IMG/VR virus record: IMGVR_UViG_2778261692_000010
Direction: 5' to 3' (one strand)
DNA length: 3,514 nt
Source: a virus
Lineage: Duplodnaviria; Heunggongvirae; Uroviricota; Caudoviricetes
The notes beneath the pieces are model-generated. The model did no database searches and was not told the DNA's origin. It saw nothing but the letters and a program-made list of their open reading frames with translations. Both the position numbers and the translations under genes were made by a program. Of this stretch, positions 1-3,514 are shown piece after piece; the first letter of the stretch is position 1; each line of letters opens with the position of its first letter.

Positions 1-84
1 ATGGCGGGTTATTTGTCCTGGTTATTCCCCCGTTGTAAAATCTCTCCTAAACTTAACGGTACGGCACCACACTTCGGGGATGAA

Positions 85-276
85 ATGTTCGCGCTGGTAC
101 TTTTTGTTTGCTACCTGGATGGCGGTTGTGAAGATATTGTTGTGGATGTCTACAACACGGAACAGCAGTGTCTTTATTCTATGAGCGATCAACGGATCCG
201 CCATGGCGGTTGTTTTCCGATTGAGGATTTTATAGATGGTTTCTGGCGACCAGCACAGGAGTATGGTGATTTTTAA
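85..276 (+). CDS. yebW: Small uncharacterized protein, YebW-like (63 aa)
   Basis: ORF track gives 1..276, but the 63-aa product from the ATG at 85 (MFALVLFVCYLDGGCEDIVV...QEYGDF) matches my recollection of E. coli YebW. GGGGA at 76..80 sits 4 nt upstream of the ATG. TAA stop at 274..276. Synteny with pphA immediately downstream on the opposite strand. The start could instead be the ATG at 1; not resolvable from sequence alone. Confidence 0.6.
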   Translation: MFALVLFVCYLDGGCEDIVVDVYNTEQQCLYSMSDQRIRHGGCFPIEDFIDGFWRPAQEYGDF

Positions 277-933
277 TTATTGCAATTGCACAAGAGTCAG
301 TTCGCCCCCAAAGACAGCACCGGTATCAATATAATGCAGGTTGCCAATATCCACGCGATGTCGCAACGGTGTATGACCAAACCAGAAATGATCAGCACCT
401 GTAATTCCCTGCCCTTTTTGGCGTTCACCTAATCGCGAGCGGCTCCACAAGACCTGATGCAAATCAACGTCCTTTTGCCATTCATAAACATCATCTGGAT
501 AATCGGCATGAGCAATAACATGTTTGCCGGTACGACTGTGTACTTCAAGAATAAAGGGCAAATGCTGACATTTTTCCAGCGCCGTTTTCGCTTGTTTCTG
601 TTGATTATCTGCCAGCGCAATAAACCAGTCGCCGCCATTCATCAACCACAAAGACATCTGCTGGGATGCCAGCGCATCCATCGCCATCTGTTCATGATTG
701 CCTCTTACCGCACAAACCCAATGTTGTTCCAGTAACTGCAGACAACGTAAACTTTGCGGCCCACGATCGATAACGTCTCCTACTGAGATAAGTAAATCTC
801 GCCACGGATCAAAACGACAATGCCATAATTTGCGGCGCAACTGCTCAAGACAACCGTGTATATCGCCAGAAAGCCAGATATGTCGCCATTGATGACCCGC
901 AATTCTCTGATAAACGGGCGCAGGCTGTTTCAT
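277..933 (-). CDS. pphA: Serine/threonine protein phosphatase 1 (PPP-family metallophosphoesterase, lambda-phosphatase-like)
   Basis: 218-aa product starting MKQPAPVYQRIAGHQW... carries the metallophosphatase signature motifs GDIHG (aa 23-27), GDVIDRG (aa 52-58) and GNHE (aa 78-81). The ORF track begins one codon earlier at 934..936, which is TTG on the minus strand; the ATG at 931..933 is the likelier start, with GGAGG 9 nt upstream. Stop (TAA, as tta at 277..279) abuts the yebW stop. Matches my recollection of E. coli PphA/PrpA. Confidence 0.9.
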   Translation of the reverse strand: MKQPAPVYQRIAGHQWRHIWLSGDIHGCLEQLRRKLWHCRFDPWRDLLISVGDVIDRGPQSLRCLQLLEQHWVCAVRGNHEQMAMDALASQQMSLWLMNGGDWFIALADNQQKQAKTALEKCQHLPFILEVHSRTGKHVIAHADYPDDVYEWQKDVDLHQVLWSRSRLGERQKGQGITGADHFWFGHTPLRHRVDIGNLHYIDTGAVFGGELTLVQLQ

Positions 934-1067
934 CAATATTTTCCTCCCGCGCTAAAGATCACATAATCTTAACAAGAATGTTAAAAAACGCTGGACTCAG
1001 ACAGTAGAGTGTGTGTTATGGTTGACTATAAAGTCAGCGAAGGAAATGCTTCTGGCTTTTAACAGAT

Positions 1068-1100
1068 AAAAAGAGACCGAACACGATTCCTGTTTTCGTC
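1068..1100 (-). ncRNA. sdsR: Truncated 3'-terminal fragment of sRNA SdsR/RyeB (terminator hairpin region); likely prophage attachment core
   Basis: Plus strand AAAAAGAGACCGAACACGATTCCTGTTTTCGTC is the reverse complement of a U-tract plus hairpin. It matches my recalled E. coli SdsR 3' end (RC AAAAAGAGACCGAATACGATTCCTGTATTCGGTC) with 2 substitutions and a 1-nt gap or third substitution near its end. It lies about 135 bp beyond the pphA start, where sdsR is expected. Similarity ends at about 1100; the rest of the sRNA is not in the window. Comparison sequence is from memory, not a search. Confidence 0.5.
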
Positions 1101-1397
1101 AACAAACAACAAAATCTTTTAGAATTAATGTGTTAAATAAATTTATGCTCATCTTTTAATCTCTAACACGTACTATTACATATTAATACATTCAATTAGT
1201 TACCATTTTTTTCGAGTTTTTTAGAGAAATTTTCGGGAATATTTCAGGTCAATCCATGCATACACAAGCAATTCCTGTATTGAATAATTCCGTAGCAATT
1301 ATGTAAAATCATCTCCGGCTGATTTTCATTCAAACTCGCGCTATCGAACGTCCATCAGCCAGCCGTGGCACGTTCTTGCATACGACGTGCTACGGTT

Positions 1398-1952
1398 TCA
1401 TTTATCTCCGACTGGAAACTTCTTATACAAAGTCGATACGCCAACATCATAAATGATCGCCACCTTCTGGCGAGGAACTCCTGATGCAATTAGTCGCCCG
1501 GCCTGCGCCCATTGTTCTGGTGAAAGTTTGGGACGGCGACCGCCAATTCGTCCCTGTGCGCGAGCAGCTTCCAGTCCAGCTTTTGTTCGTTCAACAATCA
1601 GTTCACGCTCCATTTCAGCCAGGGCACCCATGACATGAAAAAAGAAACGGCCCATTGGGGTGCTGGTATCAATAGCATCCGTCAGGCTGCGAAAATTAAC
1701 GCCACGTTCGCGCAACTCCTCAACCAGAATGACCAGATGCCGCATACTACGCCCCAGCCGATCCAGCTTCCAGACAACCAGAGTGTCACCTGCCGATAAT
1801 GTCCTGAGCAGTTTTTTCAGTCCCGGCCTTTCGGACTTTGTACCGCTTATCTTGTCTTCAAAAATCAGCTCGCATCCTGCACAGTTCAACGCATTACGTT
1901 GTAGATCGGTATTCTGGTCATTTGTTGATACGCGTACATAGCCAATAAGCAT
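1398..1952 (-). CDS. pin: Site-specific DNA invertase, serine recombinase (Pin/Gin/Cin/Hin family)
   Basis: 184-aa product MLIGYVRVSTNDQNTDLQRNAL... has the catalytic serine in YVRVSTNDQ, a DRLGR motif and a C-terminal helix-turn-helix; near-identical in my recollection to e14 Pin and Mu Gin. Start chosen at the ATG at 1950..1952 (minus strand), which has AGGGAGA (1959..1965) 6 nt upstream. The ORF track's upstream extension to 1988 (MASFLLLSGRST) is probably not translated. Stop TGA at 1398..1400. Confidence 0.9.
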   Translation of the reverse strand: MLIGYVRVSTNDQNTDLQRNALNCAGCELIFEDKISGTKSERPGLKKLLRTLSAGDTLVVWKLDRLGRSMRHLVILVEELRERGVNFRSLTDAIDTSTPMGRFFFHVMGALAEMERELIVERTKAGLEAARAQGRIGGRRPKLSPEQWAQAGRLIASGVPRQKVAIIYDVGVSTLYKKFPVGDK

Positions 1953-1978
1953 GGTAGATCTCCCTGACAAAAGCAGGA

Positions 1979-2500
1979 ATGATGCCATTTGCTCGTTATT
2001 TCTGCATTTTCATAAACGTTGGTTTGGGAGAAGGCTCTGCATTACCTGTTGGTGTCCCTGTTCCGTGGCCTTCAGCCACACCGCCAACAGGCTGGCTGAA
2101 ATGCAACGGAGCAGCTTTTTCTGCTGAAGAATACCCGGAACTGGCAAAGGCTTACCCGACAAATAAATTGCCAGATTTACGTGGTGAGTTTATTCGTGGC
2201 TGGGATGACGGGCGTGGTATTGATGCTGGACGTGCTTTATTGAGCCTTCAGGCTGGGATGCTGGAAAAACACCGCCATATTGTTGTTGCCAATGATGGTT
2301 ACGACACAAAAGATGAATGGGAACTGGCTACGATTTTCAAAAAGACATACACACAAGGACGGGGACTTGATGCCACAAATACAGGAGGGAGTCTGATCCC
2401 ATCACCGACACTTCATTCACGAGGGAGTATCGGTAATACTGGCGGGAATGAAACCCGTCCACGAAATATTGCATTTAATTTTATCGTGAGGGCTGCATAA
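1979..2500 (+). CDS. Tail fibre protein, C-terminal variable (receptor-binding) cassette; promoterless fragment read away from the invertase
   Basis: Product contains ...ALPVGVPVPWPSATPPTGWLKCNGAAFSAEEYPELAKAYPTNKLPDLRGEFIRGWDDGRGIDAGR..., which I recognise as typical of Mu S / lambda Stf / e14 StfE C-terminal regions. There is no N-terminal shaft domain. An in-frame stop lies at 1955..1957, 24 nt upstream of the ATG, and the first ~18 codons span the crossover site, so the ATG at 1979 is unlikely to be a real start. Stop TAA at 2498..2500. Confidence 0.8.
   Translation: MMPFARYFCIFINVGLGEGSALPVGVPVPWPSATPPTGWLKCNGAAFSAEEYPELAKAYPTNKLPDLRGEFIRGWDDGRGIDAGRALLSLQAGMLEKHRHIVVANDGYDTKDEWELATIFKKTYTQGRGLDATNTGGSLIPSPTLHSRGSIGNTGGNETRPRNIAFNFIVRAA
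2007..2032. other. 26-bp crossover site for the Pin-family invertase (hix/gix/pix-like), one end of an invertible segment
   Basis: TTTTCATAAACG TT GGTTTGGGAGAA has imperfect dyad symmetry: two 12-bp half-sites (TTTTCATAAACG and, by reverse complement, TTCTCCCAAACC) around a central dinucleotide at 2019..2020. Its reverse complement matches about 20/26 positions of hixL as I recall it (TTCTTGAAAACCAAGGTTTTTGATAA). It lies 55 bp from the pin start codon and inside the start of the tail-fibre cassette ORF, as expected for these switches. Confidence 0.7.
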
Positions 2501-3102
2501 TGGATAACGCCGTATTAAATAGCGAGCTTATTGCCACGAAGGCGGGGAATATTACCGTCTATAACTATGATGGTAAAACTCGGGAATATATTTCCACTTC
2601 AAATGAATATCTTGCCATTGGTGTCGGTATCCCTGCATATTCCTGTTTAGATGCCCCTGGCACACATAAGGCGGGTTATGCTATCTGCCGTTCGATGGAT
2701 TTAAATTCATGGGAATATGTGCCAGACCATCGCGGTGAAATCGTCTATAACACCGAAACGGGAGATGCCAAAGAAATCACAGCACCGGGTGATTACCCCG
2801 AAAATACAACCACTATCGCCCCATTAACGCCATACGATAAATGGGATGGTGAGAAATGGGTGACCGATACTGAGGCACAGCATAGCGCCGCAGTAGACGC
2901 GGTAGAAGCACAGCGTCAGTCACTGATTGATACTGCAATGGCTTCCATTAGTCTGATTCAGCTGAAATTACAGGCCGGGCGGAAACTGACGCAGGCAGAA
3001 ACAACCCGGCTTAACGCTGTGCTGGATTACATTGACGCGGTGACGGCAACAGATACCAGCACCGCGCCGGATGTCATCTGGCCTGAACTGCCGGAGGCGT
3101 AG
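2500..3102 (+). CDS. tfa: Tail fibre assembly protein (Tfa/U family chaperone)
   Basis: 200-aa product with Tfa-like N-terminus (NITVYNYDG...) and the characteristic C-terminal motif DTSTAPDVIWPELPEA. Start ATG overlaps the upstream stop (TAATG at 2498..2502), indicating translational coupling; GAGGG at 2488..2492 lies 7 nt upstream. Stop TAG at 3100..3102. Confidence 0.85.
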   Translation: MDNAVLNSELIATKAGNITVYNYDGKTREYISTSNEYLAIGVGIPAYSCLDAPGTHKAGYAICRSMDLNSWEYVPDHRGEIVYNTETGDAKEITAPGDYPENTTTIAPLTPYDKWDGEKWVTDTEAQHSAAVDAVEAQRQSLIDTAMASISLIQLKLQAGRKLTQAETTRLNAVLDYIDAVTATDTSTAPDVIWPELPEA

Positions 3103-3514
3103 GCCATTCAATATCTGGCGCACTGGAAGTATCGACCAGCTCCAGTGCGTCCAGATAATCCAGCCACAGATTATATTGCGCCAGTTCCTCACCTTTCAGA
3201 CGACCAATAGCCGCTTTACCAGGCCATTGTTTACTGTTCATATAATCGTTGGCCTGATTAATCAGTTGCTGCTTTTCCAGTTCGGCTGCAGCAATCTGTT
3301 CCTCAGGTGTTGGTGGTGGAATTTCAGACCATGCAGGAAAACCATTTTCTCCAGCGATACGGATTTTTCCTTCCGGCGGTAATCCGGAAAACTCAATATA
3401 CACCTGCTCATCAACTTCAACAGCATCATCTGGCCATGAGTCAGCTTGAGTGTAATCCTCTTTCATTTCCAGTGGATAGAAAGAGTTTGTAGTCGCGGAA
3501 TATATGTAATTCAT
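3074..3514 (-). CDS. tfa: Tail fibre assembly protein (Tfa/U family), second copy, convergent; 5' end at the window edge
   Basis: 146-aa product ends in the Tfa motif DTSSAPDIEWPTPPAVQAR. The N-terminus MNYIYSATTNSFYP resembles the conserved IY..TN.F start of Tfa proteins, so the ATG at 3512..3514 may be the true start, but the frame could continue past the window. Stop TGA at 3074..3076. Overlaps the other tfa by 29 bp. Confidence 0.8.
   Translation of the reverse strand: MNYIYSATTNSFYPLEMKEDYTQADSWPDDAVEVDEQVYIEFSGLPPEGKIRIAGENGFPAWSEIPPPTPEEQIAAAELEKQQLINQANDYMNSKQWPGKAAIGRLKGEELAQYNLWLDYLDALELVDTSSAPDIEWPTPPAVQAR

What the first reader, a model, noticed from the sequence alone, without database searches (positions are those of the whole stretch)
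2007..2032. Crossover site embedded in coding sequence, with a central TT dinucleotide
Seen: the site is translated in-frame as part of the cassette ORF (roughly residues IFINVGLGEG), and the frame is open from 1958 across the site. Established: in Gin/Hin systems strand exchange occurs at the central 2 bp, and the site doubles as the fusion joint between constant and variable tail-fibre parts. The half-sites here differ from each other and from hixL/gixL as I recall them, so this may be a distinct pix variant.
Basis: partly seen in the sequence, partly recalled or inferred. Interest (0 to 1): 0.5.

Follow-up and report, generated by a model that had tools for sequence, protein, structure and literature searches.

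The report
Canonical Pin invertase crossover site pixR
The 26-base site is a real recombination site, but it is letter-for-letter the long-known pixR site of the E. coli Pin tail-fibre inversion switch, here sitting in a prophage next to pphA, so it is ordinary rather than a new variant.

Summary
Window 2007-2032 (TTTTCATAAACG TT GGTTTGGGAGAA) is a unique 26-bp imperfect dyad. It is read in frame as IFINVGLGE within ORF 1979-2500, and that frame is open from 1958.

The "distinct pix variant" idea fails. The reverse complement is 26/26 identical to the curated e14 pixR site and to the site beside pinE in K-12.

There is no second site in the window. In genomes 99% or more identical it lies about 1.87 kb to the right, at predicted window positions 3875-3900. 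It is 26/26 identical to curated pixL, inverted, with the same central dinucleotide.

Near-identical genomes carry the 1870-bp segment in both orientations. All four junctions are consistent with exchange within 2019-2033.

This copy is the invertase-proximal site, 54 nt upstream of an intact pin gene that is 95% identical to PinE. In this orientation it joins the antisense pin leader to the tail-fibre cassette that is not fused to the constant part. The real constant-variable fusion joint is the distal pixL.

Verdict: a known Pin (Din-family serine invertase) switch in a prophage between yebY and pphA. Low interest.

The parts
2007..2032 (.). pixR: the invertase-proximal 26-bp crossover site, TTTTCATAAACG TT GGTTTGGGAGAA. 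Its reverse complement is TTCTCCCAAACC AA CGTTTATGAAAA.
   Evidence: 26/26 identical to curated pixR and to K-12 e14 L011 4606-4631. Unique in the window.
2019..2020 (.). Central dinucleotide TT (AA in the conventional orientation), the presumed point of the 2-bp staggered cleavage and exchange.
   Evidence: Comparing the four junctions in both orientations places exchange between 2018 (G in pixR, C in pixL) and 2034, that is within 2019-2033. The exact cleavage position is inferred from the family (table legend; P1 cix annotation).
1398..1952 (-). pin, a serine DNA invertase of 184 aa, starting MLIGYVRVSTNDQ.
   Evidence: Pfam Resolvase (8.7e-52) plus HTH_7 (1.7e-14). 175/184 aa identical to K-12 PinE. 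Relatives are annotated pinE.
1953..2006 (-). 54-nt leader between pixR and the pin start codon. On the + strand it supplies the short N-terminal stub (MMPFARYFC) of ORF 1979-2500.
   Evidence: Same 54-nt spacing as between gixR and gin in Mu, with shared motifs. No promoter reached the scan threshold on the - strand here.
1863..1934 (-). Inferred recombinational (Fis-dependent) enhancer inside the 5' end of pin (nt 19-90 of the gene).
   Evidence: The P1 record annotates the Cin enhancer at nt 19-90 of cin. The pin, pinE, gin and cin genes align without gaps there, with shared blocks GTATCAACAAATGA and GCAGGATG. This rests on homology only; Fis binding was not tested.
2021..2500 (+). Variable tail-fibre cassette A (Collar domain), currently at the invertase-proximal position and not fused to the constant part. 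It is called as ORF 1979-2500 and corresponds to stfE of e14.
   Evidence: Pfam Collar 1.2e-15. In flipped relatives the same cassette is fused to the constant part, giving a 272-aa protein. 112 identical residues over a 182-column alignment with K-12 StfE.
2500..3102 (+). Tail-fibre assembly chaperone gene that travels with cassette A.
   Evidence: Pfam Caudo_TAP 1.3e-31. Relatives are annotated tfaE.
3074..3514 (-). Second tail-fibre assembly chaperone gene, belonging to cassette B. In the window's orientation, cassette B is the one fused to the constant part.
   Evidence: Pfam Caudo_TAP 5.9e-38. In L010 it lies downstream of the 229-aa fused fibre gene.
2019..3514 (.). Left 1.5 kb of the invertible P-type segment. 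The full segment is 1870 bp in L010; the distal pixL is predicted at about window 3875-3900, beyond the window's end.
   Evidence: L010 (99.4% identical over the whole window) has pixL at 11376-11401, and L010 position minus 7501 gives the window coordinate.

Best explanation
Window 2007-2032 is pixR, the invertase-proximal recombination site of a Pin-type (Din-family, Hin/Gin/Cin/Pin) serine-invertase switch. The switch sits at the right end of a prophage integrated between yebY and pphA in E. coli.

Proposed mechanism: Pin dimers bind pixR and its inverted partner pixL, about 1.87 kb away inside the tail-fibre gene. With a Fis-bound enhancer inside the 5' end of pin, they form an invertasome, cut both sites with a 2-bp stagger at the central TT/AA, rotate, and religate. 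This flips an 1870-bp segment that carries two convergent cassette-plus-chaperone pairs.

The conserved inner half-site GGTTTGGGAGAA encodes Gly-Leu-Gly-Glu in the same phase in both cassettes. Whichever cassette lands at pixL is therefore fused in frame to the roughly 112-codon constant part, giving a 229-aa fibre or a 272-aa fibre. In the window's orientation the Collar-domain cassette sits at pixR, joined only to a short stub that is antisense to the pin leader.

Shown here: the identity of the site, the partner site, the intact invertase, the in-frame fusions, and both orientations in near-identical genomes. Inferred from the family: the 2-bp cleavage chemistry, the Fis/enhancer dependence, and the host-range consequence.
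For: - The reverse complement of the site is 26/26 identical to curated pixR. The next best curated sites are pixL (21/26) and hixL (20/26).
- The same 26-mer lies next to pinE in K-12 e14.
- The adjacent gene has Resolvase plus HTH_7 domains and is 95% identical to PinE.
- The partner site CTCTCGAAAACC TT GGTTTGGGAGAA is 26/26 identical to curated pixL, is inverted, and has the same core. It occurs in L010, L001, L002 and L020.
- L010 and L009 differ by a clean inversion: segment 1869/1870 identical, flanks 718/719 and 700/700 identical.
- L024 is 100% identical to window 1-2033 but has the other cassette at pixR.
- Both kinds of pin-side junction are common in complete E. coli genomes: 860 and 536 of 5426.
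- The fused proteins of 229 and 272 aa read through the site in frame.
- The site-to-start-codon geometry matches Mu gixR-gin.
- Inversion of the homologous e14 P segment by PinE has been shown experimentally (PMC4272514; PMC12529663).
Against: - The partner site is not in the window, so for this exact genome its presence is inferred from relatives 99.3-100% identical in the shared parts.
- The exchange point is resolved only to 15 bp (2019-2033), not to the dinucleotide.
- The enhancer is assigned by homology alone, and a strict Fis-motif scan did not pick out the two expected sites.
- No sigma-70 promoter for pin reached the scan threshold.
Confidence: 0.93

Rival explanations
1. pixR is also a functional fusion joint. 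The ORF that starts in the antisense pin leader (ATG at 1979 or 1982) and crosses pixR would be a real gene whose C-terminal domain is swapped by inversion, as reported for StfE/StfE2 of e14. In that system the inverted form blocks phage T2 adsorption. The switch would then control two proteins at once and serve host defence rather than, or in addition to, phage host range.
For: - Kirigo et al. 2025 (PMC12529663) report that StfE2, the pin-proximal ORF after inversion, blocks T2 adsorption when produced, and that inversion is needed for protection.
- The stub MMPFARYFCIFINV is conserved here, and the frame stays open across pixR in both orientations: 173 aa in the window, 130 aa in L009.
- PGAP calls the ORF a 'phage tail protein'.
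Against: - StfE2 activity was shown by plasmid expression, not from the native position.
- The AGGA upstream of the ATGs at 1979/1982 is only 0-3 nt away, which is a poor ribosome-binding geometry.
- K-12 annotates stfE as a pseudogene.
- The cassette that would form the StfE2 equivalent here matches StfE2 at only 44 of 133 aligned positions.
- In Mu and P1 the invertase-proximal cassette is treated as unexpressed (annotations).
Confidence: 0.25
2. The site is a relic: a decayed prophage end where inversion no longer happens, and the site is conserved only by descent.
For: - Some relatives have damaged modules: pin is truncated to 71 aa in L007, tail genes are frameshifted in L001, and the cassette is partial in L002.
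Against: - In the window, pin is a full 184-aa ORF and the site is intact.
- Genomes 99-100% identical in the flanks carry the segment in both orientations.
- Contig L022 starts exactly at the central TT of the distal site, as expected if the assembler met both junctions in one culture.
Confidence: 0.05
3. The match is a chance resemblance to the invertase consensus within ordinary coding sequence.
For: The loose Din consensus at up to 3 mismatches is expected 0.22 times per window by chance.
Against: The site is 26/26 identical to pixR, lies next to a pin gene, has an inverted partner, and both orientations are observed.
Confidence: 0.01

Closest known systems
e14 P-segment inversion system of E. 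coli K-12 (pinE, pixL/pixR, stfP/tfaP/tfaE/stfE; Plasterk & van de Putte 1985, as cited in PMC4272514)
   Same: - pixR and pixL are each 26/26 identical.
- Pin is 95% identical at the protein level.
- Same gene order: invertase | site | cassette, tfa, tfa', cassette | site | constant part.
- The sequence of the constant part just before pixL is the same.
- Cassette A plus tfa are 88-91% identical in DNA over most of their length.
   Different: - The host element differs. Here it is a prophage between yebY and pphA: in relative L014 it is about 42 kb with a Rac-like early region and a contractile-tail module. e14 is a cryptic element at icd.
- The segment is 1870 bp, against 1828 bp between the equivalent positions in K-12.
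- Cassette B differs: the flipped pin-proximal ORF of L009, which carries it, matches K-12 StfE2 at 44 of 133 aligned positions.
- About 200 bp in the tip of cassette A (window 2253-2449) does not align with e14.
Mu G-segment / Gin (gixL, gixR)
   Same: - The invertase lies outside the segment and is transcribed away from it.
- There are 54 nt between the site and the start codon in both, with shared leader motifs.
- Two convergent pairs of S-variable part plus chaperone, and a fusion joint inside the tail-fibre gene.
   Different: - The gix core is GA and the sites match the window's site at only 17/26.
- The cassettes are unrelated in sequence.
- The Mu fibre is much longer.
P1 C-segment / Cin (cixL, cixR) and p15B Min (mix sites)
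   Same: - Same AA core.
- The enhancer is annotated at nt 19-90 of cin, which aligns with a well-conserved stretch of pin.
- The tail-fibre constant/variable logic is the same.
   Different: - cin is transcribed towards the segment, and cixL overlaps its 3' end.
- The cix sites match at 19/26 and the mix sites at 18-19/26.
- Min has six sites, whereas only two are found here.
Salmonella Hin / hix flagellar switch
   Same: A 26-bp site with an AA core (hixL 20/26), a Din-family invertase, and a Fis/enhancer mechanism.
   Different: It switches a promoter rather than coding cassettes, and hin lies inside the invertible segment (established knowledge, not tested here).

Membership tests
Din-family (Hin/Gin/Cin/Pin) invertase crossover site | A 26-bp imperfect dyad matching TTC-N4-AAAC-N4-GTTT-N4-GAA | tested here: met
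   1 mismatch to the consensus, and the only match in the window. The half-sites agree at 8/12 positions.
Din-family (Hin/Gin/Cin/Pin) invertase crossover site | An adjacent gene for a small serine recombinase (Resolvase catalytic domain plus C-terminal HTH_7) | tested here: met
   Window 1398-1952 (-): Resolvase 8.7e-52 and HTH_7 1.7e-14. The N-terminus is MLIGYVRVST, as in Gin and Cin.
Din-family (Hin/Gin/Cin/Pin) invertase crossover site | A second site in inverted orientation with an identical central dinucleotide | tested here: inconclusive
   Absent from the window itself. Present in L010, L020 and L022 (99.3-99.4% identical over the window) and in L001 and L002, with the same TT/AA core, about 1.87 kb away. 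For the source genome itself this is inferred.
Din-family (Hin/Gin/Cin/Pin) invertase crossover site | The segment between the sites is found in both orientations, with breakpoints inside the sites | tested here: met
   L010 against L009 and L003: a clean inversion with the four junctions resolved to window 2019-2033. L024 is 100% identical to window 1-2033 but has the other cassette at pixR.
Din-family (Hin/Gin/Cin/Pin) invertase crossover site | A 2-bp staggered double-strand cleavage at the central dinucleotide, with a phosphoserine link | not testable with these tools
   This needs biochemistry. Sequence comparison narrows the exchange point only to 15 bp.
Din-family (Hin/Gin/Cin/Pin) invertase crossover site | A Fis-dependent recombinational enhancer in cis | tested here: inconclusive
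   Window 1863-1934 is homologous to the annotated P1 Cin enhancer. A strict Fis-motif scan found no properly spaced pair. Binding cannot be tested here.
e14 pixR specifically | Sequence identity to the curated pixR (TTCTCCCAAACC AA CGTTTATGAAAA) and a position next to pin | tested here: met
   26/26. The site ends 54 nt upstream of the pin ATG, the same leader arrangement as in K-12 e14.
Tail-fibre constant/variable fusion joint (Mu S, P1 S type) | The site lies inside a tail-fibre gene, with a constant N-terminal part upstream and a variable part downstream | tested here: not met
   This holds for the distal pixL, not for this copy. Upstream of 2007 there are only 16 codons of open frame after the stop at 1955-1957, antisense to the pin leader. 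The constant part of about 112 codons is at the other site.

The most novel reading that the evidence does not exclude
The pin-proximal ORF crossing pixR (1979-2500, and its 130-aa counterpart after inversion) might be expressed and act on the host cell surface. It would be a switchable anti-phage adsorption blocker, as claimed for StfE2 of e14. In that case pixR would be a second working fusion joint, and this prophage would carry a different StfE2-like cassette (gp53-like C domain, matching StfE2 at 44 of 133 aligned positions) with its own phage specificity.
Probability: 0.2. Interest if true: 0.45.

Novelty: already known. Interest (0 to 1): 0.1.

Why it matters
It matters little beyond correct annotation. 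The site marks one boundary of an active tail-fibre (host-range) inversion switch. That explains three things: why ORF 1979-2500 looks like a tail-fibre gene without a proper N-terminus, why assemblies of this region differ in orientation or break at this point, and why the same cassettes turn up in unrelated prophages. If the recent StfE2 report extends beyond e14, such pin-proximal ORFs could be switchable phage-defence factors. That would be the only angle worth an experiment.

Tried and rejected
1. I searched the window for a second site three ways: the exact site at up to 3 mismatches, the Din consensus, and inverted repeats. None was found, because the partner lies beyond the window's end.

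2. The genome-contig scan with TTCTCCCAAACCNNNGTTT was badly chosen. Only the E. coli and Shigella loci had inverted pairs, all with an AA core. It says nothing reliable about taxonomic spread.

3. A strict Fis-motif scan of the pin 5' region gave one hit inside pin (centre 1815) and one in the pin leader (centre 1998), with no pair at the expected spacing. The enhancer assignment therefore rests on homology to the P1 annotation only.

4. The sigma-70 scan found no pin promoter near pixR, so I make no claim about promoter overlap or autoregulation.

5. My first in-silico inversion of e14 was off by one base and gave frameshifted products. It was corrected.

6. The original paper by Plasterk & van de Putte 1985 (PMC554175) is not held in the library. 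The curated site sequences come from Table 3 of PMC3241671.

7. No genome 100% identical to the whole window was found. The best full-length match is 99.4% (L010/L020).

Full report
**What is in the window**

The 3514-bp window is E. coli chromosome at the edge of a prophage. It contains, in order:
- yebW (1-276, +; DUF1482).
- pphA (277-933, -; Metallophos).
- A 460-bp intergenic stretch.
- A serine invertase gene (1398-1952, -; Resolvase plus HTH_7).
- The flagged site (2007-2032).
- An ORF with a phage Tail Collar domain (1979-2500, +).
- Two convergent, overlapping tail-fibre assembly chaperone genes (2500-3102, + and 3074-3514, -).

Every complete E. coli genome matches part of the window, mainly the core genes yebW and pphA. 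Only 17 of 5426 match 80% or more of it. In those relatives the genes are annotated pphA, pinE, "phage tail protein" and two tail-fibre assembly proteins. These are followed by a gp53-like tail-fibre gene and baseplate genes.

In one relative the element is a full prophage of about 42 kb between yebY and pphA. It has an integrase, a Rac-like early region, and lysis, head and contractile-tail modules.

**Checking the observation**

- The site reads TTTTCATAAACG TT GGTTTGGGAGAA, with TT at 2019-2020.
- The stop at 1955-1957 leaves the frame open from 1958.
- The site is translated (I)FINVGLGE in the frame of ORF 1979-2500.
- The two half-sites agree at 8 of 12 positions.
- It is the only sequence in the window that matches either itself (up to 3 mismatches, 0 expected) or the Din-family consensus (1 mismatch, 0.22 matches expected at up to 3 mismatches).

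The description is accurate and the site is not a chance match.

**What the site is**

Table 3 of PMC3241671 lists the curated hix, gix, cix, pix, mix, nix and bix sites. The reverse complement of the window's site, TTCTCCCAAACC AA CGTTTATGAAAA, is 26/26 identical to pixR of e14. The next best matches are:

| Curated site | Match to the window's site |
|---|---|
| pixR | 26/26 |
| pixL | 21/26 |
| hixL | 20/26 |
| cix sites | 19/26 |
| gix sites | 17/26 |

The same 26-mer sits next to pinE in K-12 MG1655, and the window's invertase is 175/184 aa identical to K-12 PinE.

**The partner site and proof of inversion**

The window has no second site. I fetched contigs that encode exactly the window's Tfa or Pin protein.

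- L010/L020 (the same record) is 99.4% identical to the window over its full length and has the same orientation.
- In L010 the partner lies at 11376-11401 on the minus strand. It reads CTCTCGAAAACC TT GGTTTGGGAGAA, which is 26/26 identical to curated pixL, is inverted, and has the same core.
- Translated to window coordinates, this is about 3875-3900, some 360 bp past the window's end.

L009 and L003 carry the same prophage at the same locus with the segment flipped. The four junctions are:

| Genome | Junction 1 | Junction 2 |
|---|---|---|
| L010 | pin-leader \| pixR \| cassette A | constant \| pixL \| cassette B |
| L009 | pin-leader \| pixR \| cassette B | constant \| pixL \| cassette A |

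These junctions are shown. Between L010 and L009 the 1870-bp segment is 1869/1870 identical, and the flanks are 718/719 and 700/700 identical. The two genomes differ essentially by one clean inversion.

The outer half-sites stay with their flanks: position 12 is G on the pin side and C on the constant side. The cassettes first differ at the second base past the end of the site. Exchange is therefore mapped to window 2019-2033, which includes the central TT.

L024 is 100% identical to window 1-2033 yet has cassette B at pixR. Across 5426 complete E. coli genomes, the pin|A junction is found in 860 and the pin|B junction in 536. Published work shows the homologous e14 segment inverting within clonal cultures and under PinE expression (PMC4272514; PMC12529663).

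**Where this copy sits in the switch**

The inner half-site GGTTTGGGAGAA encodes Gly-Leu-Gly-Glu at the start of both cassettes and in the same phase. Either cassette is therefore joined in frame to the constant part of about 112 codons at pixL. This gives a 229-aa fibre (gp53-like C domain) in the window's orientation and a 272-aa fibre (Collar domain) in the flipped one.

pixR is the other boundary. It ends 54 nt upstream of the pin start codon, the same spacing as between gixR and gin in Mu, with recognisable shared leader motifs. The frame "open from 1958" is only 20 codons, antisense to that leader, so it is not a constant tail-fibre part.

In this orientation the Collar cassette at 2021-2500 and its chaperone gene (2500-3102) are in the non-fused position. 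The minus-strand chaperone gene (3074-3514) belongs to the fibre that is currently fused.

**Mechanism**

I take the standard Din-family mechanism as by far the most likely. Pin dimers bind pixL and pixR. They synapse at a Fis-bound enhancer. Both sites are cleaved with a 2-bp stagger at the central dinucleotide. [quoted passage not shown]

This rests on established knowledge of the family (legend to Table 3; Hin work; P1 crossover annotation). It was not tested here.

The P1 record places the Cin enhancer at nt 19-90 of cin. The homologous stretch of pin is window 1863-1934, and it contains blocks identical in pin, pinE, gin and cin. A strict Fis-motif scan did not confirm two properly spaced sites, so the enhancer assignment is inference only. 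No promoter for pin was identified.

**A qualification to "silent cassette"**

Kirigo et al. 2025 (PMC12529663) report on e14. After inversion, the pin-proximal ORF (StfE2: the same stub plus the StfP C-terminal gp53-like domain) blocks T2 adsorption when it is produced. They also report that inversion is required for protection.

My in-silico inversion of K-12 reproduces their 125-aa StfE2. The equivalent ORF in the flipped form of this prophage is 130 aa and matches StfE2 at only 44 of 133 aligned positions.

The ribosome-binding geometry in front of the ATGs at 1979/1982 is poor, and K-12 annotates stfE as a pseudogene. I therefore keep this as a minority rival reading (about 0.2-0.25).

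**Comparison and novelty**

This is the Pin system itself, not merely something that works like it: the sites are identical, the invertase is 95% identical, and the architecture is the same. What differs from e14 is:
- The carrier prophage and its integration locus.
- The identity of cassette B.
- A divergent stretch of about 200 bp in the tip of cassette A (2253-2449).

The same pin-plus-cassette module also occurs in P2-like prophages, with different constant-side half-sites (L004-L006). That is the familiar modular exchange of tail-fibre inversion regions.

None of this is new. Hundreds of deposited genomes carry the site, and annotation pipelines already name the gene pinE.

**Verdict**

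- Observation: confirmed.
- Interpretation: partly supported.
- Novelty: already known.
- Interest: 0.1.

Noticed in passing
window 1863-1934 (- strand): This stretch of pin is homologous to the enhancer annotated at nt 19-90 of P1 cin. The blocks GTATCAACAAATGA and GCAGGATG are identical in pin, pinE, gin and cin, so it probably holds the Fis-dependent enhancer embedded in coding sequence.
   Followed up: partly
L022 position 1 (contig JBRTFW010000003.1 of GCA_053187805.1; 99.3% identical to the window): The contig starts exactly at the central TT of the distal pix site (TTGGTTTGGGAGAAGCGG...). L023 and L024 also end inside the segment. Such assembly breaks are what a mixed-orientation culture would produce.
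   Followed up: partly
L007 11376-11401 and 8900-9115: In this relative the distal site has G instead of C at position 12 (CTCTCGAAAACGTT...), so it matches pixR at that base. Its pin gene is called as only a 71-aa HTH_7 fragment. This could be a point mutation or gene conversion in a locked switch.
   Followed up: no
L004, L005, L006 (sites at 9508-9533 and 11376-11401): The same cassettes, chaperone genes and inner half-sites occur in P2-like prophages. There the constant-side half-sites differ (TTCTTGCATACC, TTCTTGATTACC, TTCTCACATACC) and the fibres are longer (392-537 aa). The inversion module has moved between unrelated tail types.
   Followed up: partly
window 2253-2449: About 200 bp in the distal half of cassette A aligns neither with e14 stfE nor with L001, although both flanks are 88-98% identical. 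This is a mosaic hypervariable patch, presumably the receptor-binding tip.
   Followed up: no
L018 4387-4412 and L021 4012-4037: Other relatives at the same locus have variant distal sites (TTACCACAAACC TT GGTCTGGGAGAA; CTCTCGAAAACC TT AGTTTGGGAGAA) and further cassette types. All keep the TT core.
   Followed up: no
window 3074-3102, with inverted repeat 3021-3038 / 3147-3164: The two convergent chaperone genes overlap by 29 bp at their 3' ends. Their C-terminal coding regions form an 18-nt inverted repeat that is 83% complementary, which reflects the shared C-terminal Tfa motif.
   Followed up: no
window 937-1397: This is a 460-bp AT-rich non-coding stretch between pphA and the end of pin. 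It should contain the prophage/chromosome junction (attR). I did not locate the junction.
   Followed up: no
window 1-276: yebW is open for 91 codons here, and is called as 91 aa in L010 and L003. RefSeq annotates a 63-aa product in other strains, so this is a start-codon annotation difference.
   Followed up: no
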